A DNA stretch of 64,000 nucleotides from an uncultured Oscillospiraceae bacterium (GTDB taxonomy: Bacteria; Bacillota; Clostridia; Oscillospirales; Oscillospiraceae). Location of the stretch: contig CAJUAC010000005.1 in the NCBI GenBank assembly GCA_910583885.1, positions 16,508 through 80,507 of the forward strand, given 5' to 3'. The translations under genes were made by a program, and so were the position numbers. This document shows positions 8,585 through 46,364 of this stretch, one piece after another. Positions within the stretch are counted from its first letter, which is position 1, and each line of letters begins with the position of its first letter. The notes under the pieces were generated by a model. The model made no database searches, was not told where the DNA came from, and saw only the letters and a program-made list of their open reading frames with translations.

Positions 8585-8618
8585 GCATTATGGACTGTGA
8601 TATGGGGAGGGGTGCTCT

Positions 8619-9942: not shown

Positions 9943-9961
9943 ACTGTCTCTCCTCCTTAAT

Positions 9962-10750: not shown

Positions 10751-10779
10751 TTGCACTTCTTTCTCTTTTATGATATAGT
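10751..10779 (+). promoter_or_regulatory. Sigma-A-type promoter of the glycopolymer operon (about 310-nt leader)
   Basis: TTGCAC, a 17-nt spacer, then TGaTATAGT, located in an AT-rich gap. Confidence 0.45.
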
Positions 10780-11092
10780 TGTCCTCAACGTTAAAAATGC
10801 TCCATGCTGGAGCCCTTTATATGACGCTATTTATAGACAACTTTTATATTTTGATTATAAATTTGAAAGGGGTTGCATCATGCAGTACGACCTAACAGGT
10901 CCTGGATTCCGTTTAGCACAGGAAGGGATCAAACGCTGCTTGACGGCTTGCTGTGGTTTGAGCCACAACGATAAATCCTGGCCGCAATGCATTGGGGGGC
11001 TGGGGCGGCAACAAACAGCCTACGCCCAGGAGCAGATACGGGCCGGACCCACGGAGCTGCTGAAGATTGATCGGAAAGGGAGGTAATATACA

Positions 11093-12574: not shown

Positions 12575-13300
12575 ATGAGCAGAACAGTTATTGAATTAAC
12601 CGATGTGACCATGCGGTTTCGGATGAACAGCGACAAGATCCTGTCCTTGAAGGAATTTGTAACCACCGCCCTGCGAGGGAAGCTGGATTACCAGGAATTT
12701 ACCGCCCTGGACCACGTCTCCCTCCAGGTAAAAAAAGGGGAGACCCTGGGGCTGATCGGCCGCAACGGTGCGGGAAAAAGCACGCTGCTGAAGGTGATCT
12801 CCGGCATCCTGAAGCCGACAGCGGGCAGCGTACAGTGCCAGGGAACCATTGCGCCCATGCTGGAACTGGGTTCCGGGTTTGATATGGATCTGACTGGGCG
12901 GGAGAACATTTTCCTCAATGGTGCGATCCTTGGCTACAGTGAGGCATTTTTGAACGCAAAGTACGACGAAATCGCAGCATTTTCTGAGCTGGGCAACTTC
13001 ATCGAAACCCCTATCCGCAACTACTCCTCCGGGATGCTGGCGCGGCTGGCCTTCTCGGTTACAACAGTAGTCCAGCCGGAGGTACTGATCGTCGACGAGA
13101 TCCTATCCGTAGGGGATGCGGCATTCCAGGAGAAGAGCAGGCGGCGGATGATGGAGCTGATGGGCGGTGGAACTACCGTGCTCTTTGTCTCCCACAGCCT
13201 GGAGCAGATCCGTGAGATGTGCAGCCGGGTAGCCTGGCTGGAACAGGGGCGGGTCAAGATGATAGGCGCGCCTGCTGCGGTTTGCAGCGCTTATGTATAG
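12575..13300 (+). CDS. Polysaccharide/teichoic-acid export ABC ATP-binding protein (Wzt/TagH-type, no C-terminal carbohydrate-binding domain)
   Basis: Walker A GRNGAGKST, signature YSSGMLARL, Walker B LIVDEILSVGD, 241 aa. Confidence 0.9.
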   Translation: MSRTVIELTDVTMRFRMNSDKILSLKEFVTTALRGKLDYQEFTALDHVSLQVKKGETLGLIGRNGAGKSTLLKVISGILKPTAGSVQCQGTIAPMLELGSGFDMDLTGRENIFLNGAILGYSEAFLNAKYDEIAAFSELGNFIETPIRNYSSGMLARLAFSVTTVVQPEVLIVDEILSVGDAAFQEKSRRRMMELMGGGTTVLFVSHSLEQIREMCSRVAWLEQGRVKMIGAPAAVCSAYV

Positions 13301-13319
13301 GAGAGGGGGCAGGCCATCG

Positions 13320-14561
13320 ATGGACCAACTAACTGAACATTTTTCCGGTCCGCTCCTCTTTTCGTATGTCTGGTGGGTTCTTCATCAGGCAGTCCACATG
13401 CGGATTGGCAGGCTGTACTTTTTAGCCAGGGACGGCTGCCTCCTGCGGGAAATGGCGGAGCAGTTCTGCCGGAGCTGCCGCCTGCCCATTGAATGCCGCT
13501 ACCTGTATTGCTCCCGTATGGCCCTGCGCACACCATGCTGCCACCTGATTGGGGACGAGGCGCATGACCTGCTGCTCCTGGGCGGGTATCGGGTTTCCCT
13601 GCGCAGCCTGTTGGACCGGGTGGGGCTGGAGGACAGCGAGCGTCAGGAGGTATATCGGGAATGCGGCCTAGTCAGCCGGGATAAGGATGTCTTGCTGCCG
13701 GAGAAGGAGCTTGCACTGGTCCGCAGGCTGCTCAGAGGCAGCGAAACCTACCGCCGGGCTGTGGGGCGCAGATCCCGGGAGGCCTATCCAGCCGCAATGG
13801 GGTATCTCCGGCAGGAGGGGCTGTTTGATGGGGCCACTGTGGCCATCGTTGACAGCGGATGGACAGGCTCCATGCAGCGCTCCCTGCGCCAGCTGCTGCA
13901 ATCCGGCGGATATGCCGGGAGGATCGTCGGGTTCTACTTCGGCATGTACGCCCCACCCAAAAGCCCGGAGGACGGCGCCTATTTCACCTGGTTCTTTTCT
14001 GGCAGGGACCACCTCCTGCGGAAAATCCCCTTTAACAACAACCTCTTTGAGTGCCTGCTGTCCGCCCCGCACGGAATGACGGCAGGCTATCGGGAAGAAC
14101 GCGGTACCTATGTGCCGGTGTGCCTGCCGTGTACGGAGGGCTACCGGCAAACGGTGCGCAGGCAGATGGCCCGTGTACTGCGGTATACACAGAGGCGGCT
14201 GGAGACCTTGGACTTTGGCCGCTTCCACGGAAAGGCCTTGTTGAAGGAGAGCGAAAAAATCGTTTCCCGCTATATGGCACATCCAACGCGGGAGGAGGCG
14301 GTTGCCTGGGGGGAGTATCTTTTTTGCGACGACGTGACAGATGGATATCTCCTGCCCCTGGCAGACGCGTCACAGACAGCCATGCTCAAGAATTATGCTA
14401 TCCTCCGGCGCATATGCCGCAAGCTGGCGGGCAGGCCTGCCCAGGCTGCCGCAGAGCTGTACTGGCCCGAGGGGGTGTCCGCCTTCCTGCCACCGGCAAG
14501 GCGGCTGTGGTACCGCTGGAATATCTATGTGTGGGAGCTCCTGCGCTATGTGCTGCATTGA
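13320..14561 (+). CDS. Unknown-function protein, paralogous to the central domain of the 1266-aa protein (called the X domain here)
   Basis: Shares YFLARDG and IVDSGWTGSMQRSL with YFMLRDG and IVDLGWKGSMLRGL of the gene at 16303. GGAGAGGGGG RBS. An alternative ATG at 13293 overlaps the tagH-like stop. Confidence 0.7.
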   Translation: MDQLTEHFSGPLLFSYVWWVLHQAVHMRIGRLYFLARDGCLLREMAEQFCRSCRLPIECRYLYCSRMALRTPCCHLIGDEAHDLLLLGGYRVSLRSLLDRVGLEDSERQEVYRECGLVSRDKDVLLPEKELALVRRLLRGSETYRRAVGRRSREAYPAAMGYLRQEGLFDGATVAIVDSGWTGSMQRSLRQLLQSGGYAGRIVGFYFGMYAPPKSPEDGAYFTWFFSGRDHLLRKIPFNNNLFECLLSAPHGMTAGYREERGTYVPVCLPCTEGYRQTVRRQMARVLRYTQRRLETLDFGRFHGKALLKESEKIVSRYMAHPTREEAVAWGEYLFCDDVTDGYLLPLADASQTAMLKNYAILRRICRKLAGRPAQAAAELYWPEGVSAFLPPARRLWYRWNIYVWELLRYVLH

Positions 14562-15366
14562 CAGTCCGCCCAAGATCTCAGTGGTTATGGGGGCGTACAA
14601 TATTGCCGGCCTGTCCATCTTCCCAGAGGCCATCCAGTCCATCCTGTCCCAATCGCTGGTGGAGCTGGAGCTCCTCATCTGCGACGACGGCTCCTCGGAC
14701 AGGACCTGGGACATCCTCACCCTGCTGGCCGGGCAGGACCGCAGGGTACGGCTCCTCCGCAGTGGGCGGAACCGGGGGCTGGCCGCCGCGCTCAACCGCT
14801 GTATTGCAGCCGCTGGAGGGCGGTATATCGCGCGGCAGGACGCGGATGACCTCTCGGACCGGTTCCGCCTGGAGAAACAGTGCCGTTTCCTGGACAGCCA
14901 CCCGGAGATCCAGTTTGTAGGCAGCGATACGGAGCTGTTCGACCGGGACGGCATCTGGCGGGTACGGCGCTTTCCGGCCTTTCCCCGCCCGGAGGACTTC
15001 CTGTTTACCATGCCCTTTGTCCATGGGGCCCTCATGTTCCGGAGGGAGGCGCTGCTGGATATGGGCGGCTACCGCGTGGCGCGGGAGACCCGCCGCACCG
15101 AGGACTATGATCTGCTCATGCGGCTATACGCAGGCGGTCTGCGGGGGGCGAACATCGGAGAGCCCCTGTACCGCTTCCAGGAGGGCAGGGATACCGAGCA
15201 GCGCCGGAAATACCGCTACCGCGTGGACGAGGCGGCCGTCCGCTGGAAGGGGTTTGCGGCGATGGGCCTCATGCCGCGGGGGATCCCCTATGCCCTCAAG
15301 CCGCTGGCAGTGGGGCTCCTGCCTGCGGGCATCCTGCGCAGGATGAAGAAACTGCGCCCATATTGA
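14548..15366 (+). CDS. Family-2 glycosyltransferase (GT-A)
   Basis: ISVVMGAYNIAG...ILSQSLVELELLICDDGSSD...ARQDADDLS (DxD) fits the typical GT2 N-terminal half. The start is uncertain (14527, 14548 or 14587). Confidence 0.85.
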   Translation: MCCIDSPPKISVVMGAYNIAGLSIFPEAIQSILSQSLVELELLICDDGSSDRTWDILTLLAGQDRRVRLLRSGRNRGLAAALNRCIAAAGGRYIARQDADDLSDRFRLEKQCRFLDSHPEIQFVGSDTELFDRDGIWRVRRFPAFPRPEDFLFTMPFVHGALMFRREALLDMGGYRVARETRRTEDYDLLMRLYAGGLRGANIGEPLYRFQEGRDTEQRRKYRYRVDEAAVRWKGFAAMGLMPRGIPYALKPLAVGLLPAGILRRMKKLRPY

Positions 15367-15424
15367 GGGCCTGCATCCATGTCAAGCCAACGCTGGATAC
15401 AGGCCCGGAAGGGAAGGGACCCAC

Positions 15425-16234
15425 ATGGAGATCAGACGGATCATCCGCAGGGCAGACAGGGCGCTCTGCATATGGCTGCTGGAACGGAGCTCCCTGCCGC
15501 AGAAGATCATGTACTACCAGAGGCGGTATGATGGGCAGATCCTGCAAAGCTTCCTGCTGCCGCCGGTGGCACGGGGACAGCAGGAGGGCTGTATACTGAT
15601 GGACTACGCCGGCCGCAGGGCGTACCGGCCTGCGGATGTGTACGGATTCCTGGAGGGTTTCGACACCGTGTCCTTTGACCTCTTTGATACGCTCCTGTTC
15701 CGGGATACGCCCTCGCCAGCGGATCTATTCGGGCTGGTGGGACGGGAGCTGGGCATCCCGGATTTCCAGCGCTCCCGCATTGCGGCGGAGCGGGCGGCCC
15801 GGCGGGCCAAGCGCCAAGCCGCCGGAACCAGTGAGGTGACGCTTACGGACATCTACTCCATGTTGCCTGGCGCAGGCCGCAGCCATATGGAGGAGGAGCT
15901 CCGCCAGGAGCAATGCCACTGCCGCATAGACACCGCCATGCGGCAGCTGGTGGAGGTGCTGTGCCGGCGAGGGAAGCAGGTCGTGATCATATCGGATATG
16001 TACCTCACCGCAGAACAGCTGGCGGCACTGCTCCAGTGCGCCGGGTACACCTTCCCGGGCCATCTGTACGTCTCCAGCCAGTACGGATGCAGCAAGGCCA
16101 GCGGCGGGCTCTTCCCTCTGGTCCTGCGGGAGTGCGGTGCGAAGCGGATGGCCCATATCGGGGACAACTTTGCCAGCGATATCCTCATGGCCCGCCAGGC
16201 GGGGGTTCCTGCCCTGCACTGTTTGCAGCCATAG
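15425..16234 (+). CDS. HAD-superfamily (subfamily IA-like) hydrolase, paralogous to the N-terminal domain of the 1266-aa protein
   Basis: Motif I FDLFDTLLFR, ISDMYL, and motif III HIGDNFASD. The longer start is favoured by the coding-like GC3 of 15425-15598; an alternative start is at 15599. Confidence 0.8.
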   Translation: MEIRRIIRRADRALCIWLLERSSLPQKIMYYQRRYDGQILQSFLLPPVARGQQEGCILMDYAGRRAYRPADVYGFLEGFDTVSFDLFDTLLFRDTPSPADLFGLVGRELGIPDFQRSRIAAERAARRAKRQAAGTSEVTLTDIYSMLPGAGRSHMEEELRQEQCHCRIDTAMRQLVEVLCRRGKQVVIISDMYLTAEQLAALLQCAGYTFPGHLYVSSQYGCSKASGGLFPLVLRECGAKRMAHIGDNFASDILMARQAGVPALHCLQP

Positions 16235-16302: not shown

Positions 16303-19300
16303 ATGGATATCACAACAATACGGCAGCTTATCAGCCAATCCCAAGCAGTTTCTTTTGACCTGTTTGACACGCTGGTTGTGCGGCTCTTCCGGAAGCCAAC
16401 TGACCTGTTCGCGCATCTGGAGGAATCCACCCAGGCCACCGGCTTCCAGTCGGCCCGGATCGCCGCAGAGCAGGAGGCGCGCTCCCTGGCCGCCGGGTGC
16501 GGTGTACACGAGGTCACACTCGATGAGATCTACACCCAGCTGCACCCGTCCTATCAGCCGCTGCGGCAAAAGGAGCTGGCGCTGGAGCGGCTGATGTGCC
16601 AGGCAAATCCGGAGATGCAGGAGGTCTTCCGCTGTGCGCTGGAGAGCGGGAAGCCGGTCTTCATTGCCTCAGATATGTACCTCCCCAGGGAGGTAGTGAC
16701 GGCCATCCTGGAGGACGCTGGATACCAAGGCTATCAGAAGCTCCTGCTCTCATCGGAGACCCGCCGCCCCAAGGCGACAGGAGAGATGTATGAGGATTTG
16801 ATCGCTGTTTCCGGCCTGGAGGCTGGCCAGATCCTCCACATCGGGGACCACCCCTATACAGACGGCCAGGCCGCGCGGGAGAAGGGGCTGCAAACCTACA
16901 GCTATACGCCGCTGCGGCAGTCCGCCGGGAACAACCGGAACTCCGCCTATTTTGCTGTGCTGAACCGTTATGCGGAGCAGGAGCCCGCCGTCTCCATCCT
17001 GGAGGGGCTGGTGACAGCCTACGAGGCCAGCCAACCTGCCCACACCTACTGGGAGTCCTTTGGCTACAAGTACACCGGCATCCTCGCCTATGGGTATATG
17101 AAGTGGCTCAAGGAGCGGCTGGATCACCTGGGGATCACCAGGGTTTACTTCATGCTGCGGGACGGCTTTGTGCTCAAGCGCGTATTTGACAGGCTCTTCC
17201 CGCAGTTTGAGACGTATGAAATCTACGGCTCCAGGAGGCTCTTCCTCTTCGCGGGGATGCGGTCCTACCGCGATATCCAGCTCCACATTACAGGTCTCCA
17301 CACAAAGGGGATCACCTATGCCCAGTTCTGGGACAGGCTCAGCTTAGAGGACGAGGCGTTCCATGCGCGCTACCTGGAGTCTTTCCCCATGCAGGCGCAG
17401 CGGATTTCCAGCGAGGGGCAGCTGCGGGAGCTGGACGCCTTTATGGAGGCCCATGAGGCGGATCTGCTGGCGGCAGGCCGGGAGGAGCGGGCTGCCCTGG
17501 CGGCGTACTTCCAGCAGATCGACCTGCTGGAGGGCCCGGCTGCCATTGTTGATTTAGGCTGGAAGGGATCTATGCTGCGGGGGCTGGAGAACGTATGCCA
17601 TCTCTTGGGCCGCTCCGCAGAGCTCACGGGCTTTTTCCTGGGCACACACACCTGCAATACCCCCGGCCTGCGGGTGGAGTCCTACCTGCTGGACCACGGG
17701 CACGCAACCGGCGCGAGGAATGCGGAGGTGCTGCTGGACTACGGGTACATTGTCCCGATTTTGGAGTCCGCCTTTTCCGCCCCCCACCAGAGCATCCTCA
17801 AGCTGAAGCAGCAGGACGGGGAAATGATCCCCATTTATCAGGACAGCAGCGCCCACGAGGAGGCGCGCAGCGGGATGTGCCGCCAGGTCCTTGACGGCAT
17901 ACTGGCGTTTGCTGCGGACATGGGCCGCATTGAGACGGTGTTCCCGCTCCCCATTTCCCGCGAGGCTGCCCTTGCCCCGATGGAGTACCTCTCCCGGTCC
18001 GCCAGCAAACCGGATCAGGTGCAGATACAGATGCAGAGCGTCTGCCCTGGCCTCGGGAATGACAGCAGCAACAGCCCCATTCTGCGGCAGGGCCGGCCTG
18101 TGATCGGTGTTGTCAACCCCTGGCCGGGGGATATGAGCGCGGAGTCCGAGGTGCTGGCGCGGCTGAAGCGGGCGGCAGAGGAAAATGGCATCGGCTATGT
18201 GATGCTGGACAATTTCGGCCATCTATTGGATGAACACCAGCGCGCGACCAGCACCTTTGTGGATGCGGATGATGTCAGCTTTATTCTCACGACCCATTAC
18301 GAGACGGCCAAGGTGCTGGACGCCTTCCACTACCACACCCTCTGGAACCCGCCGGAAATCCCGCTCAACCTGGACTACTATACCCAGCGCGTCACCAACC
18401 AATATCTGATGAACGAGGATTTCCTGATCTATGACGCCGGTGGCATGTCCAACCACCTGAAAGGGATGCTGCTCAACTGCCCCCGGACGCTGGAGGGTGC
18501 GTCCTCCCTGACAGCGTCCTTCCCCCTCAGCGCCATGCTGGCACCCCGGCTGGAGTCGCCCACCATGTTTTACTGCGGCATGAACTGGGAGAAAACGATC
18601 CATGGCAGCAACCGGCACGAGGGCCTGTTCAAGCTCCTGGACCGGACCGGGAAGGTAAAATTCTTCGGCCCGGAGGTTGTGGAGGCCTGGGGCGGCCTCC
18701 GGCCCTGGGAGGGGTACCAGTGCTATCAGTATTCCATCCCCTTTGACGGGTTCTCGATCCTGGAGGAGATCAACCAGTGCGGGATCTGCCTGGTACTCTC
18801 CTCCGACATACACCGGCGGGCAGGCAGCGCCACAAACCGCACCTATGAGGCCTGTGCCGCCGGGGCCGTCATCATCTCGGACGACAACGCCTTCATGCTG
18901 AAGTATTTTTCGGATGCTGCGCTGTTTATTACCTACAACAGGAACAACCCCCAGGACACTTTCCGCCAGATCATGGAGAAGTACAGCTGGATTATCTCCC
19001 ACAGGGAGGAGGCCCTTGCCCTGGCCAGGCGGGCGCAGCAGATTTTCGCAGAAACATTCGCCCTGGACATCCAGCTGAAACAGATTGTCGCAGCCCACCC
19101 TGCCCGCTTTGCCCAGGTCGCAGGGGACCTGTATGCAAAGGACGACGGGCAGACCGTTCTGGTGACTTATGTGCTCAATACCCAGGAGATGGGTACAGCA
19201 AAGGCACAGCTGGACAGCGTATTCCGGAATATCCACCGCCAGCTCTACCGCACCATCCAGCTTGCCATTGCGGCGGACCTGTCGATCTGCCAGGAGGTGC

Positions 19301-20103
19301 AGTCCTACTGCCTCGTGCGCTGTGCCTGTGCGCAGGTGGTTCCCATGGCGCTGTTTGACAAAAAGGGGGTCCGAAGCCTTACAGATGGCCAGGCCGTCCG
19401 CAGGCTGCAAAAACAGGTGGCCCATACCTATTCCATCAATACCAATGCTGAGGAGATCTGGTTTTTTGACCACATCACCGCCATGGCCCGCCAGATTGAG
19501 GACACCGGCGCACCCTGCGCCTACTCCGGGAGCGCATACCAGGACTGCCATGGATACCGCCGGGTGAATTTCTTTGAAAAACTGGGCACCAGCCATCTGT
19601 TCTATCAGAGCAAACCGGAACGGCCCCTGATGCCGGGGCAATTCCTGTTCCATGCGGACGCCCACGCACTGCTCCCGGACTATCTGTTTGACTGCTTGGA
19701 CGGCGGGGAGCACCTGGCCTATGCGGGGATCCTCCACTACAAATACGGGCAGATGCTTGCCTTTAGCCGGCGGATGAGCTTCTGCTTTACCCAGGAGGAA
19801 AAGGATACGCGCAGCAGCGTGCTGCCCGCCGCCATGCAGACGCGGTTTATCCAGGATCTGGTGCGTCTGGACCTGCCGGAGCAGGGGCCAGCGGAGGGGA
19901 CGCCTGCCGCATCAGTGCAGGCGGGAGAGATGCGGCGGATGGTCGCAGACGGGCTGCTGATCATGCCGCTGAAGAACCTGATCCGGCTGCGCTTCTACCG
20001 CATGAGGATGCGGAAGCTGGATCCGGGCGGCGAACGCTATCAGGCGCTAAACAGGAAATACAACGCTGTTTTGAAGCAATATGAAGATTTTTGGGGGATT
20101 TGA
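16303..20103 (+). CDS. 1266-aa multidomain protein: HAD hydrolase, X domain, GT-B/CgeB-like glycosyltransferase region, then a GT-A-like degenerate C-terminal region
   Basis: AAGGAG RBS. Motifs in order: FDLFDTLVVR...ASDMYL...HIGDHPYTD (HAD), YFMLRDG...IVDLGWKGSM (X), CGICLVLSSDIHRRAGSATNRTYEACAAGAVIISDD (GT1-like C-terminal motif region), then TVLVTYVLNTQE... (GT2-like beginning). The 130 codons upstream in the ORF track overlap the HAD gene and were rejected. Confidence 0.8.
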   Translation: MDITTIRQLISQSQAVSFDLFDTLVVRLFRKPTDLFAHLEESTQATGFQSARIAAEQEARSLAAGCGVHEVTLDEIYTQLHPSYQPLRQKELALERLMCQANPEMQEVFRCALESGKPVFIASDMYLPREVVTAILEDAGYQGYQKLLLSSETRRPKATGEMYEDLIAVSGLEAGQILHIGDHPYTDGQAAREKGLQTYSYTPLRQSAGNNRNSAYFAVLNRYAEQEPAVSILEGLVTAYEASQPAHTYWESFGYKYTGILAYGYMKWLKERLDHLGITRVYFMLRDGFVLKRVFDRLFPQFETYEIYGSRRLFLFAGMRSYRDIQLHITGLHTKGITYAQFWDRLSLEDEAFHARYLESFPMQAQRISSEGQLRELDAFMEAHEADLLAAGREERAALAAYFQQIDLLEGPAAIVDLGWKGSMLRGLENVCHLLGRSAELTGFFLGTHTCNTPGLRVESYLLDHGHATGARNAEVLLDYGYIVPILESAFSAPHQSILKLKQQDGEMIPIYQDSSAHEEARSGMCRQVLDGILAFAADMGRIETVFPLPISREAALAPMEYLSRSASKPDQVQIQMQSVCPGLGNDSSNSPILRQGRPVIGVVNPWPGDMSAESEVLARLKRAAEENGIGYVMLDNFGHLLDEHQRATSTFVDADDVSFILTTHYETAKVLDAFHYHTLWNPPEIPLNLDYYTQRVTNQYLMNEDFLIYDAGGMSNHLKGMLLNCPRTLEGASSLTASFPLSAMLAPRLESPTMFYCGMNWEKTIHGSNRHEGLFKLLDRTGKVKFFGPEVVEAWGGLRPWEGYQCYQYSIPFDGFSILEEINQCGICLVLSSDIHRRAGSATNRTYEACAAGAVIISDDNAFMLKYFSDAALFITYNRNNPQDTFRQIMEKYSWIISHREEALALARRAQQIFAETFALDIQLKQIVAAHPARFAQVAGDLYAKDDGQTVLVTYVLNTQEMGTAKAQLDSVFRNIHRQLYRTIQLAIAADLSICQEVQSYCLVRCACAQVVPMALFDKKGVRSLTDGQAVRRLQKQVAHTYSINTNAEEIWFFDHITAMARQIEDTGAPCAYSGSAYQDCHGYRRVNFFEKLGTSHLFYQSKPERPLMPGQFLFHADAHALLPDYLFDCLDGGEHLAYAGILHYKYGQMLAFSRRMSFCFTQEEKDTRSSVLPAAMQTRFIQDLVRLDLPEQGPAEGTPAASVQAGEMRRMVADGLLIMPLKNLIRLRFYRMRMRKLDPGGERYQALNRKYNAVLKQYEDFWGI

Positions 20104-20105
20104 CC

Positions 20106-21005
20106 ATGGACTATGTCGTGATTGGCGCGGGGGGCTTCCTCGGCTCCTACCTGCTGGAGGAGCTCCAGGCGGCGGGGCATCGGGTGCTCGCCACGGCGCG
20201 GTCGGTAGAAGGGCGCACCTGCGGGCCTCAAATTACCTGGCAGCGCTGTGACATCACAAAAGAGCGGGAGGCCGGCGCCCTGATAGAGCGGCTTTCCGGA
20301 CTGCCCGCCTGCCGGCTCTTTTATTTGGCCGCCTACCACCACCCAGATCTGGTGCAGAAACACCCCGGCAAGGCGTGGGAGACGAACATCACCGCCCTGT
20401 CGGCATTCCTGAACCAGGCGGCCAACGTGGGGGCGCTGTTCTATGCATCCACCGATGTGGTCTATGGGGAGGGCACCCTGGAGCGGCGCTTCCGGGAGCA
20501 GGATCCCCCGCGTCCTGTCAACCTGTATGGGAAGCATAAAGCCCTTGCTGAGCAGCTTGTGCTGGCCTGCGGGTACAACGTGGTCCGATTCCCCTTCCTC
20601 ATCGGGCCCAGCCGGGCGGCAGGGAAACAGCATTTCTACGATACGATTTGCGGGAGCCTGTCCCGGGGCATACCCATTGAAATGTTTGCTGACTCCTACC
20701 GCTCCGCCCTGAGCTTCCGGCAGGCGGCCCGCCTGCTGGTACAGGTTTCCGAGCTGGAGGGCTGCCCGGCGGTGCTCAATATCGCCTCAGACGACGCCCT
20801 GTCAAAATACGATACCGGCAGGATGATTGCAGAGAAACACGGCTACGATCCAACGCTGGTACGGCCTATCCGGTTCCGGGATGCCCAGGGGATTTTCGAG
20901 GTCCCGCGGGCAGGCACGGCACTGCTGGACAACACCCTCCTGAAGCGGATGCTGGGAGTGCCGGAGATCCACCTGCGGCTGGATGAGGAGGGAGCTGTCA
21001 GATGA
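20106..21005 (+). CDS. Extended SDR (RmlD/4-reductase-like) NAD(P)-dependent sugar-nucleotide reductase/epimerase
   Basis: GAGGFLGSYL Rossmann motif and catalytic YGKHK. 299 aa. ATG lies 3 nt after the previous stop. Confidence 0.8.
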   Translation: MDYVVIGAGGFLGSYLLEELQAAGHRVLATARSVEGRTCGPQITWQRCDITKEREAGALIERLSGLPACRLFYLAAYHHPDLVQKHPGKAWETNITALSAFLNQAANVGALFYASTDVVYGEGTLERRFREQDPPRPVNLYGKHKALAEQLVLACGYNVVRFPFLIGPSRAAGKQHFYDTICGSLSRGIPIEMFADSYRSALSFRQAARLLVQVSELEGCPAVLNIASDDALSKYDTGRMIAEKHGYDPTLVRPIRFRDAQGIFEVPRAGTALLDNTLLKRMLGVPEIHLRLDEEGAVR

Positions 21006-22003
21006 TTATGACAAAAGCGCCCTTCCGGATGTCCTTTTTCGGAGGAGGGACCGACTACCCGCCATTTTTTATGGAGCACGGGGGAAGCGTCCTCTCCACG
21101 ACATTTGACAAATATGTCTATGTCTCCGTGCGCCACCTCCCCCGTTTTTTTGCGTACCGCACGCAGGTCATCTACTCCAAAATTGAGCGGGTGGTATCCG
21201 AGGAGGAGCTGGAGCACCCCTTGGTCCGTGAGGCGATGCGGTATCTGGATATGCACAACCTGCATATCACCTATGACGCAGATCTGCCCGCCCGCTCTGG
21301 CCTGGGGTCCAGCAGCGCCTTTGCGGCGGCGCTGATCGGTGCGTTCCACGCCCTGAAGGGGCAGTATGTCCCACCGGGGCAGCTGGCGGAGGAGTGCATC
21401 TACGTGGAGCGCACACTCTGCGGGGAGGACGGCGGGTGGCAGGATCAGATTGCGGCCTGCTATGGGGGCTTTAACCGCATTGATTTCAAGGGGAGCCAGT
21501 TTGAAGTCCACCCGCTGATTATCCCCAAGGAGAGGAAGCAGGCCCTCAACCGGAACTTGATGCTGTTTTTCACCGGCTTCACCCGCTTTTCCTCGGATAT
21601 TGCCAAGGAGCAGACGAAGGCGGCCTCCGAAAAGGAGCGGGAGCTGGAGGAGATGCTTGCCCTGGTGGATGAGGCGGAAAATGTACTGGTGAACCGGCAC
21701 GGGGATCTGGATGCCTTCGGCCATCTGCTCCACCACACATGGGTCCTCAAGCAGCGCATGTCGAAGAGGATATCAACGTCCCAGCTGGATGAAATCTATG
21801 AGGCTGCCCGGCGTGCCGGTGCGCTGGGGGGCAAGCTGCTGGGGGCAGGCGGCGGGGGGTTCTTTGTGTTTTATGTGCCTGCCCAGTACCAGGAAGGCGT
21901 AAAAAATGCCCTATCCGGGCTGCTGCATGTCCCATTTTCCTTTGAAGAGGATGGGACAAAGGTGCTGTACTATGTACCGGAGGACTACGAAAAGGAGAAT
22001 TAG
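21002..22003 (+). CDS. hddA: GHMP kinase, D-glycero-alpha-D-manno-heptose-7-phosphate kinase (HddA-like)
   Basis: APFRMSFFGGGTDYPPF, LPARSGLGSSSAF and GGWQDQ are the HddA/fucokinase-type GHMP pattern. The gene sits in a heptose context. Confidence 0.75.
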   Translation: MIMTKAPFRMSFFGGGTDYPPFFMEHGGSVLSTTFDKYVYVSVRHLPRFFAYRTQVIYSKIERVVSEEELEHPLVREAMRYLDMHNLHITYDADLPARSGLGSSSAFAAALIGAFHALKGQYVPPGQLAEECIYVERTLCGEDGGWQDQIAACYGGFNRIDFKGSQFEVHPLIIPKERKQALNRNLMLFFTGFTRFSSDIAKEQTKAASEKERELEEMLALVDEAENVLVNRHGDLDAFGHLLHHTWVLKQRMSKRISTSQLDEIYEAARRAGALGGKLLGAGGGGFFVFYVPAQYQEGVKNALSGLLHVPFSFEEDGTKVLYYVPEDYEKEN

Positions 22004-22004
22004 T

Positions 22005-23018
22005 ATGAGAAAACGGGCTTTGATTACAGGAATGACAGGGATGGTCGGATCCCATATGGCAGACTACCTGCTGGAGAACACTGACTGGGACATCTTCGGG
22101 ATGCAGCGCTGGCGCAGCCCGCTGGATAACATCATGCACTTGATGCCCAGGATCAATGGGAAGGACCGGGTTTTTGTGGTATACGGCGATTTAAATGACA
22201 TGGCGAGCCTGGCTAATGTCCTCAACGAGGTCCAGCCGGACTACATCTACCATCTGGCCGCGCAGAGCTATCCGCTGACAAGCTTTACCGCACCGGCCGA
22301 TACGCTCAACACGAACATCCTGGGGACCTGCCGCCTGCTGGAGTCTGTGCGCCAGCTGAAGCTGGATCCAGTGATCCACGTGTGCGCCTCCAGTGAGGTG
22401 TTTGGGCGCGTCACGGCGGACAAGCTCCCCATCGATGAGTCGTGCTGTTTCCAGCCGGCGTCGCCCTACGCCATTTCCAAGGTGGGCACGGATCTGATCG
22501 GCCGCTTTTACGCAGAGGCCTACGGCATGACCGTGATGACAACCCGCATGTTCACACACACCGGCCCCCGCCGCGGCGACGTGTTCCATGAATCTACATT
22601 TGCCAAGCAGGTGGCAATGATTGAGGCGGGGCGGCAGCCGCCGGTCATCAAGGTGGGCAACCTGGATTCGCTCAGGACCTACGCAGATGTCCGCGACGCG
22701 GTGCGGGCCTACTATCTGCTGACAACGGTAAACCCGATACCGGGGGAGTATTACAATATCGGCGGCACCTACACCTGTACGGTAGGGGATACCCTCCAGT
22801 ATTTCATTGACCACTCCACGATGAAAGAGGCCATCCGCGTTGAGGTGGATCCGGCGCGCTTACGGCCGATCGACGCGGATTTGCAGGTTCCAAACTGTGA
22901 GAAGTTTACAAAGCACACCGGCTGGACGCCAGTATATCCCTATCAGCAGACAATGGACGACCTGCTGTCCTACTGGCGGGAGAAGCTTCAGCACACTGGG
23001 ACATACATTGACAGGTGA
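22005..23018 (+). CDS. Extended SDR, GDP-sugar 4,6-dehydratase/Rmd-like
   Basis: ALITGMTGMVGSHM, SSEVFG and YAISK (S/Y/K triad). 337 aa. The assignment of dehydratase versus reductase between this gene and the one at 20106 is uncertain. Confidence 0.75.
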   Translation: MRKRALITGMTGMVGSHMADYLLENTDWDIFGMQRWRSPLDNIMHLMPRINGKDRVFVVYGDLNDMASLANVLNEVQPDYIYHLAAQSYPLTSFTAPADTLNTNILGTCRLLESVRQLKLDPVIHVCASSEVFGRVTADKLPIDESCCFQPASPYAISKVGTDLIGRFYAEAYGMTVMTTRMFTHTGPRRGDVFHESTFAKQVAMIEAGRQPPVIKVGNLDSLRTYADVRDAVRAYYLLTTVNPIPGEYYNIGGTYTCTVGDTLQYFIDHSTMKEAIRVEVDPARLRPIDADLQVPNCEKFTKHTGWTPVYPYQQTMDDLLSYWREKLQHTGTYIDR

Positions 23019-23023
23019 CGGCC

Positions 23024-23404
23024 ATGTTGAAACGATTAAAGCCGGATTTTACCCATCGGGACGGGCGCGGATCCCTTGTCCAACTGGTCAGGGCGGGCTA
23101 TACGCAGTTCAATGTTATTACCAGCAGGGCGGGGGCGGAGCGGGGACGCCACTTCCACAAGCGTAATGGCGAAGCCTTTTACATCATCAGCGGGAAGGTG
23201 CGCGTTGATGTCAGCAGCCACGGGCAACGGGAGAGCTACCAGTTTGGAGACGGGGACTTCTTTTCCATTGAACCGCTGGATTTGCACAGCTTTTCCTTTA
23301 TTGAGGACACTGTCCTGGCGAGTATGTACGACCTTGGCGTGGAGCTGGAGGACGGGAAGAAGGATATTTATGATGAAGCAGAGTACAAAGCATATACTAA
23401 ATGA
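23024..23404 (+). CDS. Small cupin-fold sugar-nucleotide epimerase/ketoisomerase-like protein
   Basis: About 126 aa. DGRGSLVQL...ERGRHFHKRNGEAFYIISGKV is the cupin motif as in WxcM/FdtA/RmlC-type enzymes. An alternative GTG start is at 23015. Confidence 0.65.
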   Translation: MLKRLKPDFTHRDGRGSLVQLVRAGYTQFNVITSRAGAERGRHFHKRNGEAFYIISGKVRVDVSSHGQRESYQFGDGDFFSIEPLDLHSFSFIEDTVLASMYDLGVELEDGKKDIYDEAEYKAYTK

Positions 23405-24020
23405 TCTGATTGTGCGCTATCCGGCGCTGGATTGCTGTAAGGAGGGGATTTTCTCCGCTGTCGCAGTCAGCGCCCGCGCCTATGCGGAGGGCGGCAAGGT
23501 GCTGGCCTGCGGCAATGGCGGGAGCGCTGCTGACAGTATGCACATTGTGGGGGAATTGATGAAGGGGTTTACCCTGCCACGGAAGCTGCCGGAGGCGCTC
23601 TGCCAGCAGATCGCCCAGACGTCCCCGGAGACGGCGGCTTACCTGACAGAAAATTTACAGCAGGCCCTGCCCGCGATCTCCCTGGTGGGGGAAACCGCGC
23701 TCTCCACAGCCTACAGCAACGACATTTCGCCCGTCCTATGCTTTGCACAGCAGGTCCTAGCCCATGGGAAGGCGGGGGATATTTTGCTGGGGATATCCAC
23801 CTCGGGCAATTCAGCAAATGTCATTTACGCGGCCCAGATGGCACGTGTGAAGGGGATGCAGGTCATCGCTCTGACAGGGGGAACAGGGGGCGGACTGGTG
23901 GATTGGGCGGATGTACCCATCATTGTACCGGCCTCAGTAACCTATCACATCCAGGAGCTGCATCTGCCGGTCTATCACGCCTACTGCCTGGCACTGGAAA
24001 ATGAATTTTTCGGAGGATAA
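23370..24020 (+). CDS. gmhA: SIS-domain phosphoheptose isomerase
   Basis: KVLACGNGGSAADSMHIVGEL, ISTSGNSANV and the 216-aa length. Overlaps the cupin gene by 35 nt. Confidence 0.85.
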   Translation: MMKQSTKHILNDLIVRYPALDCCKEGIFSAVAVSARAYAEGGKVLACGNGGSAADSMHIVGELMKGFTLPRKLPEALCQQIAQTSPETAAYLTENLQQALPAISLVGETALSTAYSNDISPVLCFAQQVLAHGKAGDILLGISTSGNSANVIYAAQMARVKGMQVIALTGGTGGGLVDWADVPIIVPASVTYHIQELHLPVYHAYCLALENEFFGG

Positions 24021-24024
24021 GCGG

Positions 24025-24717
24025 ATGGAAGCAATTGTGTTGGCAGGTGGGTTGGGGACGCGGCTTGCCCACGTTGTAGCTGATGTCCCCAAGCCGATGG
24101 CACCGGTGTCAGGTACGCCGTTTTTACAACATATATTGGATCACCTCGTTCAGCAGGGGGTGTCGCATATCGTGCTGGCTGTGGGCTACAAAAAAGAGGC
24201 CATCACCAGCTATTTCCAAAACAGCTACCGGGGTGTACCAATCAGCTATTCGGTTGAAGAGTCCCCGCTGCTGACCGGGGGCGCGATCAAACAGGCGCTG
24301 GCATATTGTAGGGAAGATCCCGTGTTTATCAGCAACGGGGATACCTTGTTTGATGTGGACTATGCGCAGATGATGGCCGCCCACCAAGCGGCACATGCAG
24401 ACATCAGCATTGCGGTGAAGCCTATGGAACAGGTTGGGCGGTATGGCAGGGTGGCGTTCGATCAGGACATGCGGGTCCAATCATTCCACGAGAAGGGCTT
24501 CTGTGAAAAGGGTGCCATCAATGGTGGGGTGTACCTTCTGCAAAGAGGGGTGGTTGATACCATTACCGCAAATAAATTCAGCTTTGAAAAGGATGTCATG
24601 GAGGATCATCCCGCAGGCAAACGGATATTTGCCTGCCCATCTGCGGGCTATTTTATTGATATCGGCGTCCCGGAGGACTACGAAAAGGCGCAGAAGGATT
24701 TCCAGGAGAGGCGATGA
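24025..24717 (+). CDS. hddC: D-glycero-alpha-D-manno-heptose-1-phosphate guanylyltransferase-like nucleotidyltransferase
   Basis: MEAIVLAGGLGTRL....PKPMAPV is the NTP-transferase signature. 230 aa, in a heptose context. Confidence 0.75.
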   Translation: MEAIVLAGGLGTRLAHVVADVPKPMAPVSGTPFLQHILDHLVQQGVSHIVLAVGYKKEAITSYFQNSYRGVPISYSVEESPLLTGGAIKQALAYCREDPVFISNGDTLFDVDYAQMMAAHQAAHADISIAVKPMEQVGRYGRVAFDQDMRVQSFHEKGFCEKGAINGGVYLLQRGVVDTITANKFSFEKDVMEDHPAGKRIFACPSAGYFIDIGVPEDYEKAQKDFQERR

Positions 24718-46331: not shown

Positions 46332-46364
46332 ACGAGACTATCCATCCCGAAAGGACAGAGAGAC

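What the first reader, a model, noticed from the sequence alone, without database searches (positions are those of the whole stretch)
16303..20103. 1266-aa HAD - X - GT-B-like - GT-A-like fusion protein as candidate polymerase/modification machine
Seen in sequence: a single uninterrupted frame carries the following regions.
- (i) A HAD-IA-like phosphatase/transferase domain with intact motifs (FDLFDTL, SDMYL, HIGDHPYTD).
- (ii) A ~350-aa domain with the conserved blocks YFMLRDG and IVDLGWKGSM. I cannot assign it to a characterised family; it resembles what databases call COG5610-type predicted HAD-superfamily hydrolases.
- (iii) A region with a GT1/CgeB-like C-terminal signature (LVLSSD..RRAGSATNRTYEACAAGAVIISDD).
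- (iv) A tail that begins like a GT2 (VLVTYVLNTQE) but lacks an obvious DxD.

Inference: a HAD nucleophile domain fused to glycosyltransferase folds suggests phospho-sugar or phospho-alcohol chemistry (a phosphodiester-linked, teichoic-like repeat, or phosphatase proofreading) coupled to glycosyl transfer. No membrane segment is visible, which is consistent with cytoplasmic assembly before ABC export.
Basis: partly seen in the sequence, partly recalled or inferred. Interest (0 to 1): 0.7.

Follow-up and report, generated by a model that had tools for sequence, protein, structure and literature searches.

The report
Four-domain ribofuranose/6-deoxy-sugar polysaccharide synthase
This 1266-residue protein is real, but its "unknown" middle domain plus the HAD domain are the already characterised two-step enzyme that adds ribofuranose to bacterial polysaccharides, here fused to two uncharacterised glycosyltransferase domains, so it is a useful but not surprising variant of known multi-enzyme polysaccharide polymerases.

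Summary
The ORF 16303..20103 (+), 1266 aa, is real and intact. About 45 full-length homologues (36-99% identity) exist in Clostridia, Negativicutes and Alphaproteobacteria, so it is not a chimera.

- **Residues 1-~595 (HAD + "X").** These are homologous over their whole length to the solved PRPP-dependent ribofuranosyltransferases Bcs3 CrpP-CriT (profile E=1.6e-72) and T. composti 7SHG (8.8e-52). The catalytic residues are kept (D19; R286/D287, D417, E488). "X" is therefore a known family (gPRT/CriT), and the HAD domain is its 5-phosphate-removing partner (PRP/CrpP). It is not a teichoic-type phosphotransferase.
- **Residues ~597-945.** A CgeB-like GT-B domain whose nearest structures are GT4 enzymes.
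- **Residues ~946-1175.** A divergent GT-A (SpsA-like) domain with [D/N/E]-E in place of DxD.
- **Residues 1176-1266.** A basic helical tail.

The GT-B+GT-A pair is a self-standing, uncharacterised module. It nearly always sits next to genes for making GDP-6-deoxy sugars: GDP-6-deoxyheptose here, GDP-mannose-derived 6-deoxyhexose elsewhere.

Best reading: a cytoplasmic multi-enzyme synthase that builds a β-Ribf/6-deoxyheptose polymer exported by the adjacent Wzm/Wzt transporter.

Novelty: a new variant of a known kind. Interest is modest.

The parts
16303..16938 (+). PRP domain (HAD-type phosphoribose 5-phosphatase, residues 1-~212). The nucleophile is D19 in SFDLFDTL. Other HAD motif residues are S123/D124, K157 and G181-D182...D187.
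   Evidence: Pfam PF00702. Aligned to Bcs3 CrpP, including its nucleophile D386. These residues are invariant in 41 and 32 homologues. AF2 model pLDDT is 93.5, and the Foldseek top hits are Bcs3 and 7SHG.
16939..18090 (+). gPRT/CriT domain (PRPP-dependent glycan phosphoribosyltransferase, residues ~213-596). Catalytic equivalents are R286-D287 (Bcs3 R679-D680), D417 (E818) and E488 (E874).
   Evidence: The A3 profile matches Bcs3 381-950 at E=1.6e-72 and matches 7SHG residues 26-629 of 648 at E=8.8e-52. Foldseek gives E~2e-26 with TMq 0.64. Residue roles are taken from PMC10299916.
18091..19137 (+). GT-B glycosyltransferase domain, CgeB-like (residues ~597-945). It has two Rossmann halves plus returning helices. 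Invariant blocks are HYHTLWNPPEIP, FYCGMNWE, PFDG and SSD.HRR...R..YEACAAGAVIISDDN (E849).
   Evidence: Pfam PF13524 at E=5.8e-9, and present in 29/29 module homologues. AF2 model and Foldseek: nearest structures are the GT4 enzymes ManT 7qsg, PimA, BshA and MshA. Conservation is shown.
19138..19827 (+). Divergent GT-A (GT2/SpsA-like) domain (residues ~946-1175). The DxD position holds [D/N/E]1050-E1051. Conserved residues are N976, Q980, Y982, D992, W1053, D1056-H1057, D1133-G1134-x-E1136, F1154 and R1157.
   Evidence: The A2 profile matches SpsA 1h7l at E=2.9e-4. Foldseek to SpsA gives TMt 0.67-0.68. PF00535 is detected in 7/29 homologues but not in this protein. The family is tiny and nearly always lies behind the GT-B domain.
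19828..20103 (+). C-terminal helical tail (residues 1176-1266 plus stop). It is poorly conserved and basic: 13 K/R against 6 D/E in the last 61 residues. It may mediate membrane or partner association.
   Evidence: AF2 secondary structure shows helices at module residues 582-670, with a low-confidence linker at 600-615. The function is inferred by analogy with the C-terminal amphipathic helices of Bcs3 (PMC10299916).
11093..13300 (+). Wzm-like ABC-2 permease (11093..12565) with a conserved ~230-aa N-terminal extension, followed by a Wzt/TagH-like ATPase (12575..13300, 241 aa, no carbohydrate-binding extension).
   Evidence: Pfam PF01061 and PF00005. NCBIfam Wzm/Wzt/TagH-like. The N-terminal extension is conserved in L001, L002, L006 and L004.
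13293..16234 (+). A second ribofuranosyltransferase, split into two genes around a GT2 gene: gPRT-only (13293..14561), an EpsE-like GT2 (about 14548..15366), and PRP-only HAD (15425..16234).
   Evidence: BLASTP: gPRT-only is 24% identical to residues 257-511 of the big protein, with RDG and D-x-GW-x-GS kept. HAD-only is 37% identical to residues 16-196. Pfam and NCBIfam identify the GT2. The same gene order occurs in L001 and L002.
20106..24717 (+). GDP-6-deoxyheptose supply genes: RmlD-like 4-reductase (20106..21005), HddA-like heptose-7-P kinase (21002..22003), GDP-sugar 4,6-dehydratase-like (22005..23018), GmhA-like isomerase (within 23076..24020) and HddC-like guanylyltransferase (24001..24717).
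   Evidence: Pfam and NCBIfam hits, mostly below equivalog cutoffs: HddA 130 bits, gmd 170 bits against a cutoff of 415, gmhA 138 bits, HddC 235 bits against a cutoff of 300.
25227..26363 (+). Acyltransferase_3 membrane protein, a probable O-acetyltransferase. It is the last gene of the cluster.
   Evidence: Pfam PF01757. The next gene is an M42 peptidase on the opposite strand.

Best explanation
The gene encodes a soluble, cytoplasmic multi-enzyme glycan synthase with four catalytic domains. It works on a lipid-linked chain that the adjacent Wzm/Wzt ABC transporter then exports.

1. **gPRT domain (residues ~213-596).** It transfers ribofuranose-5-phosphate from PRPP to the non-reducing end of the chain with inversion, giving β-Ribf-5-P. 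This is shown by homology, fold and catalytic residues.
2. **N-terminal HAD domain (PRP, nucleophile D19).** It hydrolyses the 5-phosphate so that the chain can be extended. The basis is the same.
3. **CgeB-like GT-B domain and 4. divergent GT-A domain.** Each adds a sugar from a GDP-activated 6-deoxy sugar. Here that is the GDP-6-deoxyheptose made by the five genes immediately downstream. This regenerates an acceptor for the next ribose. This step is inferred from fold, conserved active-site positions and gene neighbourhood.

The expected product is a neutral β-Ribf/6-deoxyheptose heteropolymer. It is probably O-acetylated and probably attached to the wall of a Gram-positive Oscillospiraceae-like organism.

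A second, split ribofuranosyltransferase plus a GT2 in the same operon presumably add an adaptor, a branch or a further backbone residue.
For: **PRP-gPRT identity.**
- phmmer to Bcs3 gives E=2.7e-18, and to 7SHG 1e-10.
- A family profile matches Bcs3 381-950 at E=1.6e-72 and nearly the whole of 7SHG at 8.8e-52.
- The AF2 model (pLDDT 93.5, pTM 0.92) has Bcs3 and 7SHG as its Foldseek top hits, at E 2e-26 and 2e-24.
- Equivalents of Bcs3 D386, R679/D680, E818 and E874 are invariant or nearly invariant. Their roles come from PMC10299916.
- The two-step chemistry is established for the family (PMC11127046; PMC11231755; PMC12096443).

**Precedent for fusion.** Cj1432 is GT4-PRP-gPRT, and its GT4 domain glycosylates the ribose just added. 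Bcs3 is CroT-CrpP-CriT.

**C-terminal module.**
- The AF2 model has pLDDT 89.8.
- Its first part matches GT4-type GT-B structures, led by GDP-mannose-using ManT and PimA. Its second part matches the GT-A enzymes SpsA, RmlT and K4CP.
- Active-site-position residues are invariant across 29-41 homologues.

**Donor inference.**
- 21 of 28 related loci carrying the module also carry the RmlD-like reductase, often directly adjacent.
- 14 loci carry the heptose-type dehydratase at 68-85% identity, 13 of them with HddA.
- Lacrimispora and Gluconacetobacter loci instead have a true GDP-mannose 4,6-dehydratase, with ManC as well in Lacrimispora; a third, unnamed-bacterium locus (L017) has ManC with the reductase.

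**Export.** Wzm/Wzt genes are in the operon, and the protein has no transmembrane segment.

**Wall attachment.** Two LCP genes lie in the window.
Against: - No biochemical data exist for this protein or for any member of the GT-B+GT-A module.
- The GT-A domain lacks a canonical DxD, and Pfam GT2 does not detect it in this protein. It is also less conserved than the GT-B domain: 31-56% identity against 51-81% in full-length relatives. It may therefore not be catalytic.
- Neighbourhood association does not show which of the GT-B, GT-A or the separate GT2 uses the heptose donor.
- Polymerase activity cannot be told apart from single-round addition by sequence.
- The heptose genes score below the NCBIfam equivalog cutoffs. 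No GmhB and no priming transferase is present in the cluster.
- In one relative, Roseomonas (L009), no sugar-nucleotide genes were recognised nearby.
Confidence: 0.6

Rival explanations
1. Only two transferase activities are present. The PRP-gPRT pair and the GT-B domain are active, while the GT-A-like tail is a degenerate, non-catalytic domain used for acceptor or polymer binding, dimerisation or chain-length control. The product would be a disaccharide repeat (Ribf plus one 6-deoxyheptose), or the separate GT2 would supply a third linkage.
For: - There is no DxD, and position 1050 is variable (D8/N7/E5 of 29).
- Pfam GT2 is not detected in this protein.
- The GT-A part is clearly less conserved than the GT-B part in every related locus.
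- Bcs3 carries a non-catalytic polymer-binding SH3b domain at the equivalent C-terminal position (PMC10299916).
Against: Residues at the canonical GT-A functional positions are invariant over 29-41 divergent homologues:
- D992 after β2
- E1051 at the DxD site
- D1056-H1057
- D1133-G-x-E1136, about 82 residues after E1051, compared with the 92-residue SpsA D99-D191 spacing recalled from the SpsA literature (not checked here)

That pattern is more typical of an active site than of a scaffold.
Confidence: 0.2
2. The protein is not the repeat-unit polymerase. It is a non-processive assembly enzyme that builds a defined oligosaccharide once per chain, such as an adaptor on the lipid primer, a terminal cap or a side branch. 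Polymerisation would be done by the other transferases of the operon: the split gPRT/PRP plus GT2.
For: - The operon holds a second complete Ribf-transferase and a GT2, enough for a separate disaccharide polymerase.
- ABC-transporter-dependent systems commonly have dedicated adaptor or terminator enzymes (PMC11231755).
Against: - Where Ribf-transferase domains have been studied in fused proteins (Bcs3, Cj1432) or as stand-alone proteins (K. pneumoniae O4/O7), they are part of the polymerase.
- The Wzt here is short (241 aa) with no carbohydrate-binding domain that would read a terminal cap.
- The GT-B+GT-A module is often the largest or only multi-domain GT next to Wzm/Wzt in related loci such as L017.
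Confidence: 0.15
3. The HAD domain acts in phosphodiester (teichoic-like) repeat formation or as a proofreading phosphatase on sugar phosphates, and X is a new kind of domain.
For: - A HAD Asp nucleophile is present and conserved.
- The Wzt ATPase also resembles TagH.
Against: - HAD+X aligns end to end with enzymes of proven PRPP to Ribf-5-P to Ribf chemistry.
- No TagF-type (CDP-glycerol/ribitol phosphotransferase) or Stealth domain was detected in the protein, or in the other operon genes scanned.
- No CDP-alcohol or sugar-1-phosphate transferase genes are in the operon.
Confidence: 0.03
4. The long frame is an assembly or binning chimera that joins two unrelated genes.
For: The window appears to derive from a metagenome-assembled genome. 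The C-terminal half also exists as a stand-alone gene elsewhere.
Against: - The identical 1266-aa protein occurs on 5 public contigs.
- About 45 co-linear full-length homologues of 1244-1380 aa exist, including isolate genomes of Roseomonas nepalensis and Gluconacetobacter dulcium.
- Conservation is continuous across the junction at residues 585-616.
Confidence: 0.01

Closest known systems
Bcs3, the Haemophilus influenzae type b capsule polymerase (PDB 8A0C/8A0M; Cifuente et al. 2023, PMC10299916)
   Same: - A single polypeptide joins a HAD phosphatase (CrpP) directly to a PRPP-dependent ribose-5-P transferase (CriT), in the same order, together with a further polymerising transferase.
- It works with an ABC transporter.
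- Catalytic residues map one to one.
- It is the best sequence and fold match.
   Different: - Bcs3's extra transferase is an N-terminal TagF-like ribitol-phosphate transferase, and its polymer is a phosphodiester polymer.
- Bcs3 ends in an SH3b polymer-binding domain.
- Here the extra modules are C-terminal, being a CgeB-like GT-B plus a GT-A. No TagF-like or SH3b domain was detected.
- Foldseek identity is about 19-20%.
Cj1432 of Campylobacter jejuni NCTC 11168 (HS:2 capsule; Xiang, Narindoshvili & Raushel 2025, PMC12096443, PMC11800397)
   Same: - It is a three-activity polymerase: a GT4-type GT-B domain, a HAD phosphatase and a ribose-5-P transferase on one chain.
- The GT-B domain glycosylates the ribose that the other two domains installed.
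- The capsule locus also makes GDP-heptoses.
   Different: - The domain order is GT4-PRP-gPRT, not PRP-gPRT-GT-B-GT-A.
- The donor of the GT4 domain is UDP-GlcA.
- There is no GT-A domain.
- I could not compare the sequences directly, because Cj1432 is not in the tools' retrievable sets.
Stand-alone dual-domain ribofuranosyltransferases: Thermobacillus composti enzyme (PDB 7SHG), Klebsiella pneumoniae O4 ORF5 and O7 ORF7 (Kelly et al. 2022, as cited in PMC11127046 and PMC11231755)
   Same: The PRP+gPRT architecture and the two-step β-Ribf transfer match. A profile of the N-terminal half matches 7SHG over residues 26-629 of 648 at E=8.8e-52.
   Different: Those are ~650-aa proteins that cooperate in trans with separate GTs. 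Here the partner GT modules are fused. The window also contains a version split into two genes.
CgeB/YkvP-type GT-B domains (Pfam PF13524) and GT4 enzymes of known structure (ManT 7qsg, PimA 2gej)
   Same: Residues 782-923 pass the PF13524 gathering score. The predicted fold is a two-Rossmann GT-B that superposes on GT4 enzymes, including GDP-mannose users.
   Different: - Identity to any solved GT-B is only about 10-13%.
- No sequence-level PDB hit was found.
- Only the second Glu of the GT4 EX7E motif is recognisable (E849).
- No member of this particular subfamily has a known substrate.
SpsA and other GT2-family GT-A enzymes
   Same: - The fold matches (Foldseek TMt 0.67-0.68 to SpsA).
- The β1 strand, the N..Q.Y helix and the Asp after β2 align with SpsA.
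- 7 of 29 homologues reach Pfam PF00535.
   Different: - DxD is replaced by [D/N/E]-E.
- There is an extra invariant W-F-x-D-H block.
- The subfamily has only 66 representatives among 1.84 billion proteins, and where the hit is long enough to judge the domain lies behind the CgeB-like GT-B domain; about 20 short hits cannot be judged.

Membership tests
PRP / CrpP (HAD-family phosphoribose 5-phosphatase of Ribf transferases) | HAD fold with a helical cap. | tested here: met
   PF00702 scores 29.0 bits against a cutoff of 26.4. The AF2 model has pLDDT 93.5. Foldseek hits are Bcs3 and 7SHG, followed by generic HAD enzymes.
PRP / CrpP (HAD-family phosphoribose 5-phosphatase of Ribf transferases) | Motif I Asp nucleophile in F-D-x-F-D-T-L (Bcs3 D386; ORF15 D18), plus HAD motifs II-IV. 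| tested here: met
   D19 aligns with the Bcs3 nucleophile. S17, F18, D19, T23, D124, K157, G181, D182 and D187 are invariant or nearly invariant.
PRP / CrpP (HAD-family phosphoribose 5-phosphatase of Ribf transferases) | Physical or genetic pairing with a gPRT. | tested here: met
   It is fused directly upstream of the gPRT domain.
PRP / CrpP (HAD-family phosphoribose 5-phosphatase of Ribf transferases) | Hydrolysis of the 5-phosphate of terminal Ribf-5-P. | not testable with these tools
   This needs an enzyme assay.
gPRT / CriT (PRPP-dependent glycan phosphoribosyltransferase) | Homology over the whole domain to characterised members. | tested here: met
   The profile matches Bcs3 381-950 at E=1.6e-72 and 7SHG 26-629 at E=8.8e-52.
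gPRT / CriT (PRPP-dependent glycan phosphoribosyltransferase) | PRTase-like α/β core embedded in helical bundles. | tested here: met
   The AF2 model shows parallel strands at 280-284, 303-307, 413-417 and 441-447 flanked by long helices. Foldseek TMq to Bcs3 is 0.57-0.65 over ~610-647 columns.
gPRT / CriT (PRPP-dependent glycan phosphoribosyltransferase) | Catalytic and PRPP-binding residues (Bcs3 R679, D680, E818, E874). | tested here: met
   The equivalents are R286, D287, D417 (Asp in place of Glu) and E488. All are invariant or at least 90% conserved. Roles are from PMC10299916.
gPRT / CriT (PRPP-dependent glycan phosphoribosyltransferase) | Use of PRPP as donor, giving β-Ribf. | not testable with these tools
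   This needs an enzyme assay and NMR.
CgeB-like GT-B (Pfam PF13524, Glyco_trans_1_2) | Pfam model matched above the gathering score. | tested here: met
   36.5 bits against a cutoff of 25, at residues 782-923. 29/29 module homologues match.
CgeB-like GT-B (Pfam PF13524, Glyco_trans_1_2) | Two-Rossmann GT-B fold. | tested here: met
   AF2 and Foldseek hits to ManT, PimA, BshA and MshA, with E from 6.6e-10 to about 1e-6.
CAZy GT4 (retaining GT-B) | EX7E motif and sequence-level membership. | tested here: inconclusive
   Only E849 (E-A-C-A-A-G) is recognisable. No sequence hit to any solved GT4 was found. The resemblance is at fold level only. Stereochemistry cannot be inferred.
GT2-type GT-A (SpsA-like) | GT-A fold. 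| tested here: met
   Foldseek to SpsA gives TMt 0.67-0.68 at E~3e-7. RmlT, K4CP and GalNAc-T are also hit.
GT2-type GT-A (SpsA-like) | Pfam PF00535 match. | tested here: not met
   No hit in this protein at E<=0.05. 7 of 29 homologues do match, with a best E of 9.3e-6. The profile matches SpsA at E=2.9e-4.
GT2-type GT-A (SpsA-like) | DxD metal- and nucleotide-binding motif. | tested here: not met
   SpsA T-D-D aligns with N-A-E(E). Position 1050 is D8/N7/E5 of 29, and position 1051 is E27/D2.
GT2-type GT-A (SpsA-like) | Asp after β2 and a catalytic base about 90 residues after the DxD. | tested here: inconclusive
   D992 (28/29) aligns with the SpsA D-D after β2. D1133-G-x-E1136 is invariant.
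   No such Pfam or NCBIfam hit in the protein at E<=0.1. The Foldseek top list contains none.
Bcs3-type multi-enzyme capsule polymerase | CroT (TagF-like) domain and SH3b polymer-binding domain in addition to CrpP-CriT. | tested here: not met
   Only the CrpP-CriT part is shared. The remainder is GT-B, GT-A and helices.

The most novel reading that the evidence does not exclude
The C-terminal GT-B+GT-A unit is a previously unrecognised family of dual-activity polymerases dedicated to GDP-activated 6-deoxy-D-manno-type sugars (6-deoxyheptose or D-rhamnose/6-deoxytalose). It uses a metal site built from [D/E]-E and D-H in place of DxD. Fused to PRP-gPRT, it forms a self-sufficient three-transferase machine that makes a so far undescribed β-ribofuranose/6-deoxyheptose wall polysaccharide in gut Clostridia. 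The ~830-aa stand-alone forms would be descendants that lost the ribosyltransferase core but kept its helical scaffold.
Probability: 0.4. Interest if true: 0.45.

Novelty: new variant of a known kind. Interest (0 to 1): 0.3.

Why it matters
**What is already known.** Ribofuranose incorporation through PRPP was only worked out in 2022-2025, and in Gram-negative pathogens.

**What this locus adds.**
- The same PRP-gPRT unit is used in gut Clostridia, in Negativicutes and in some Alphaproteobacteria.
- There it is fused to a different pair of transferases, next to a GDP-6-deoxyheptose pathway and a Wzm/Wzt exporter.
- It gives a concrete, testable candidate for the enzyme that polymerises 6-deoxyheptose- or D-rhamnose-type sugars. 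No polymerase of this GT-B+GT-A subfamily has yet been characterised.
- It provides a one-protein route for cell-free synthesis of a Ribf/6-deoxyheptose glycan.

**What it does not do.** It does not overturn anything.

Tried and rejected
- **Pfam and NCBIfam scans.** They gave nothing for residues 210-700 or 950-1266. Identification came only from PDB sequence and profile searches and from structure prediction.
- **PDB profile search with the C-terminal module.** It found no GT-B relative at E<=10, only SpsA for the tail.
- **TagF or Stealth polymerase.** No signal.
- **Transmembrane segments.** None.
- **Assembly chimera.** Rejected.
- **HAD-only gene 15425..16234 as the missing GmhB.** Considered and rejected. 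It is 37% identical to the PRP domain, carries the FDLFDTL motif, and sits with a gPRT-only gene in conserved synteny.
- **Literature searches.** Searches for Eubacterium saburreum heptose polysaccharides and for 6-deoxyheptose transferases in Gram-positives returned nothing usable. My recollection that Lachnospiraceae such as E. saburreum make heptose- and 6-deoxyheptose-rich antigens therefore remains unverified memory.
- **Rfam scan of the window.** No hits.
- **Things I could not do.** I could not superpose the model on SpsA or PimA because coordinates are not exposed. I could not fold the full 1266-aa chain because of the 1200-aa limit. I could not retrieve the Cj1432 sequence for a direct comparison.

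Full report
**1.
- The + strand frame 16303..20103 encodes 1266 residues without interruption.
- The mechanical ORF opens at 15913. However, the ATG at 16303 follows a GGAG, the earlier part overlaps the preceding gene, and a public gene call on an NCBI record gives the same 1266-aa product.
- Pfam recognises only two pieces: a HAD domain (residues 15-199) and a CgeB-like GT-B C-terminal half, PF13524 (residues 782-923). It leaves 210-700 and 950-1266 blank.
- No 19-residue window exceeds a Kyte-Doolittle mean of 1.26, so there is no membrane segment.

**2. It is not a chimera.**
- A search of 5.8 billion proteins found about 45 co-linear homologues of 1244-1380 aa, at 36-99% identity.
- A genome scan placed them in Oscillospiraceae, Lachnospiraceae, Megamonas and other Clostridia MAGs. 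They also occur in isolate genomes of Roseomonas nepalensis and Gluconacetobacter dulcium.
- The identical protein is on five contigs.
- Conservation runs straight through the domain junctions.

**3. HAD + "X" is a known enzyme.**
- A plain phmmer search of PDB sequences hit Bcs3, the H. influenzae type b capsule polymerase, at E=2.7e-18. It hit the "ribofuranosyl transferase" 7SHG at E=1e-10, and the latter alignment includes the IVDLGWKGS block.
- A profile built from 32 family members matched Bcs3 residues 381-950 at E=1.6e-72 and nearly the whole of 7SHG at E=8.8e-52.
- An AlphaFold2 model of residues 1-599 (pLDDT 93.5, pTM 0.92) has Bcs3 (E~2e-26, TMq up to 0.65) and 7SHG (E 2e-24) as its top structural matches. 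Generic HAD enzymes come far behind.
- According to Cifuente et al. (PMC10299916), Bcs3 374-591 is CrpP, a HAD phosphatase with nucleophile D386. Residues 592-1036 are CriT, a PRTase-like ribose-5-phosphate transferase that uses PRPP, in which D680, E818 and E874 matter.
- The Whitfield group calls the same pair PRP and gPRT. They showed that the family transfers β-Ribf-5-P from PRPP and then removes the 5-phosphate (PMC11127046; PMC11231755).
- In the present protein the equivalents are D19, R286-D287, D417 and E488. All are invariant or nearly so.
- The HAD domain therefore signals neither phosphodiester chemistry nor proofreading. It is the obligatory second step of ribofuranose addition.

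**4. The C-terminal half is an independent, uncharacterised two-domain module.**
- Searching with residues 595-1266 returned more than 140 proteins. Nearly all of them cover 88-100% of the query.
- These proteins are mostly stand-alone at 650-700 aa or 810-850 aa. Some carry other N-terminal fusions.
- An AF2 model (pLDDT 89.8, pTM 0.84) shows three parts:
  - A two-Rossmann GT-B (residues ~597-945). Its nearest solved relatives are GT4 enzymes: ManT 7qsg, PimA, BshA and MshA.
  - A GT-A (residues ~946-1175) resembling SpsA (TMt 0.67-0.68), RmlT and K4CP.
  - Three long, poorly conserved, basic helices.
- At the sequence level, the module profile finds only SpsA in the PDB (E=2.9e-4).
- PF13524 is found in 29/29 homologues and PF00535 in 7/29, but PF00535 is not found in this protein.
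- The SpsA "TDD" aligns with N-A-E-E. Position 1051 is Glu in 27/29 and position 1050 is D/N/E.
- Other conserved positions are N976, Q980, D992, W1053, D1056-H1057, D1133-G-x-E1136 and R1157.
The pattern of invariant acidic residues argues for an active but atypical site, without proving it.
- An exhaustive phmmer search of 1.84 billion representatives with the tail alone found only 66 relatives. Where the hit is long enough to judge, the tail sits behind the GT-B domain, at about residue 350, 530 or 940 of 650-, 830- and 1260-aa proteins; about 20 short hits are likely fragments.

**5. Context points to the donor.** The gene sits in a co-directional operon:

| Coordinates | Product |
|---|---|
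| 11093..12565 | Wzm-like permease |
| 12575..13300 | Wzt/TagH-like ATPase |
| 13293..14561 | gPRT-only protein |
| ~14548..15366 | EpsE-like GT2 |
| 15425..16234 | PRP-only HAD |
| 16303..20103 | the four-domain protein |
| 20106..21005 | RmlD-like reductase |
| 21002..22003 | HddA-like kinase |
| 22005..23018 | GDP-sugar 4,6-dehydratase-like enzyme |
| within 23076..24020 | GmhA-like isomerase |
| 24001..24717 | HddC-like guanylyltransferase |
| 25227..26363 | acyltransferase_3 |

- This is the gene set for GDP-D-glycero-D-manno-heptose followed by 4,6-dehydration and 4-reduction, which gives a GDP-6-deoxyheptose. That pathway logic comes from established knowledge of the DmhA/DmhB and WcbK-type routes. 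The family scores here are mostly below the equivalog cutoffs.
- I ran a tblastn survey of 38 related loci. Of the 28 that carry the GT-B+GT-A module:
  - 21 also carry the RmlD-like reductase, frequently directly adjacent.
  - 14 carry the heptose-type dehydratase at 68-85% identity, 13 of them together with HddA.
- Where heptose genes are missing, GDP-mannose genes take their place. The Lacrimispora locus L012 has a bona fide GDP-mannose 4,6-dehydratase (TIGR01472, 490 bits, above cutoff) plus a mannose-1-P guanylyltransferase, and L017, from an unnamed bacterium, has the guanylyltransferase next to the reductase. Gluconacetobacter has a GDP-mannose dehydratase plus an epimerase/reductase.
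- The common denominator is a GDP-activated 6-deoxy sugar of the manno series. The top structural neighbours of the GT-B part include GDP-mannose users, which is weak but consistent evidence.

**6. Mechanistic proposal.**
- Shown by homology: the gPRT domain adds β-Ribf-5-P from PRPP, and PRP removes the phosphate.
- Inferred: the GT-B and GT-A domains add one 6-deoxyheptose each, or one adds a different sugar. This recreates the acceptor, so that one polypeptide polymerises a Ribf-containing repeat in the cytoplasm. Wzm/Wzt then exports the polymer.
- Two LCP ligase genes elsewhere in the window (44709..48209) fit wall attachment in a Gram-positive host.
- Precedents are Cj1432 and Bcs3. In Cj1432 (GT4-PRP-gPRT), the GT4 domain glycosylates the ribose that was just added. 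Bcs3 is described.
- The split second Ribf-transferase and the GT2 may build an adaptor, a branch or another backbone residue. Equally, they could be the polymerase while the big protein builds a defined unit (rival 2). The GT-A domain may be non-catalytic (rival 1).

**7. Comparison with what is known, and novelty.**
- The protein passes every computational membership test for PRP and gPRT.
- It is not a Bcs3-type enzyme, because it has no TagF-like or SH3b domain.
- It does not share the domain order of Cj1432.
- The C-terminal module belongs to the PF13524 GT-B family and to the GT-A fold class. It fails the DxD and Pfam-GT2 tests, and it has no characterised member.
- Overall this is a new architectural variant of a known kind: multi-enzyme, ABC-transporter-dependent polysaccharide polymerases that contain a PRPP-dependent Ribf transferase.
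- The most mysterious part of the original finding is already explained. What remains open is the specificity of an uncharacterised dual GT module. Interest is 0.3.

Noticed in passing
L017:9767-12268 and many ~810-850-aa homologues; corresponds to window 16930-17150 and 17790-18090: Stand-alone ~830-aa GT-B+GT-A proteins carry an N-terminal ~165 residues that align to two separate pieces of the big protein. These are residues 210-283 and 496-595, the helical parts of the gPRT domain. The PRP domain and the catalytic α/β core (284-495) are missing. Among the 83 proteins of 790-900 aa whose N-terminal 190 residues hit the big protein, 29 hit both pieces and 67 hit the second. This looks like a ribosyltransferase that lost its core but kept its helical scaffold, possibly the dimerisation bundle HB-1 of Bcs3.
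   Followed up: partly
window 13293-16234: A second ribofuranosyltransferase is encoded as two separate genes, gPRT-only (422/413 aa) and PRP-only (269 aa), flanking an EpsE-like GT2. Both keep the catalytic motifs. The same order is conserved in related Oscillospiraceae loci (L001, L002).
   Followed up: partly
window 11093-11810: The Wzm-like ABC-2 permease has a ~230-residue N-terminal extension containing a hydrophobic helix and a soluble region. The extension is 52-54% identical in L001, L002 and L006, and 29% identical in L004. It is absent from the Wzm of the other related loci. Its function is unknown.
   Followed up: partly
window 20106-24717: The GDP-heptose gene set lacks a GmhB-type heptose-1,7-bisphosphate phosphatase. 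The cluster also has no priming (WecA/TagO- or WbaP-type) transferase. Both must be encoded elsewhere or replaced.
   Followed up: no
window 43519-48209: Two tandem LytR-CpsA-Psr (LCP) genes lie at 44709-46331 and 46365-48209, downstream of a cytidylyltransferase-like/HD-domain gene. They are candidate ligases for attaching the polymer to peptidoglycan.
   Followed up: no
L001 and L002 (contigs CANQSU010000012.1 and CANQSU010000015.1 of one Oscillospiraceae MAG): One metagenome-assembled genome carries two complete copies of the whole cluster, from Wzm to HddC, in the same order. Each is about 61% identical to the window protein. This is either two paralogous polysaccharide loci or strain mixing in the bin.
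   Followed up: no
L005:4231-7242 (-), Gluconacetobacter dulcium: Next to the four-domain homologue there is a second large protein (1003 aa) with a CgeB-like PF13524 domain, a GDP-mannose 4,6-dehydratase, an epimerase/reductase and an IS-type transposase.
   Followed up: no
window 4128-7197: Two consecutive + strand ORFs of 526 and 493 aa lie in a 65% GC stretch after an Opp-type peptide ABC importer. Neither has a Pfam hit. Long antisense ORFs overlap them, as expected at this GC content.
   Followed up: no
window 8000-12000: A lower-GC stretch (0.51 against about 0.60) contains a cyclophilin-like ORF at 9418-9942 (-) and an SmpB-like ORF at 9962-10468 (-), both identified by reading the translation only, and a 198-aa ORF at 8619-9215 with no Pfam hit. 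No Rfam family, including tmRNA, reached gathering score anywhere in the window.
   Followed up: partly
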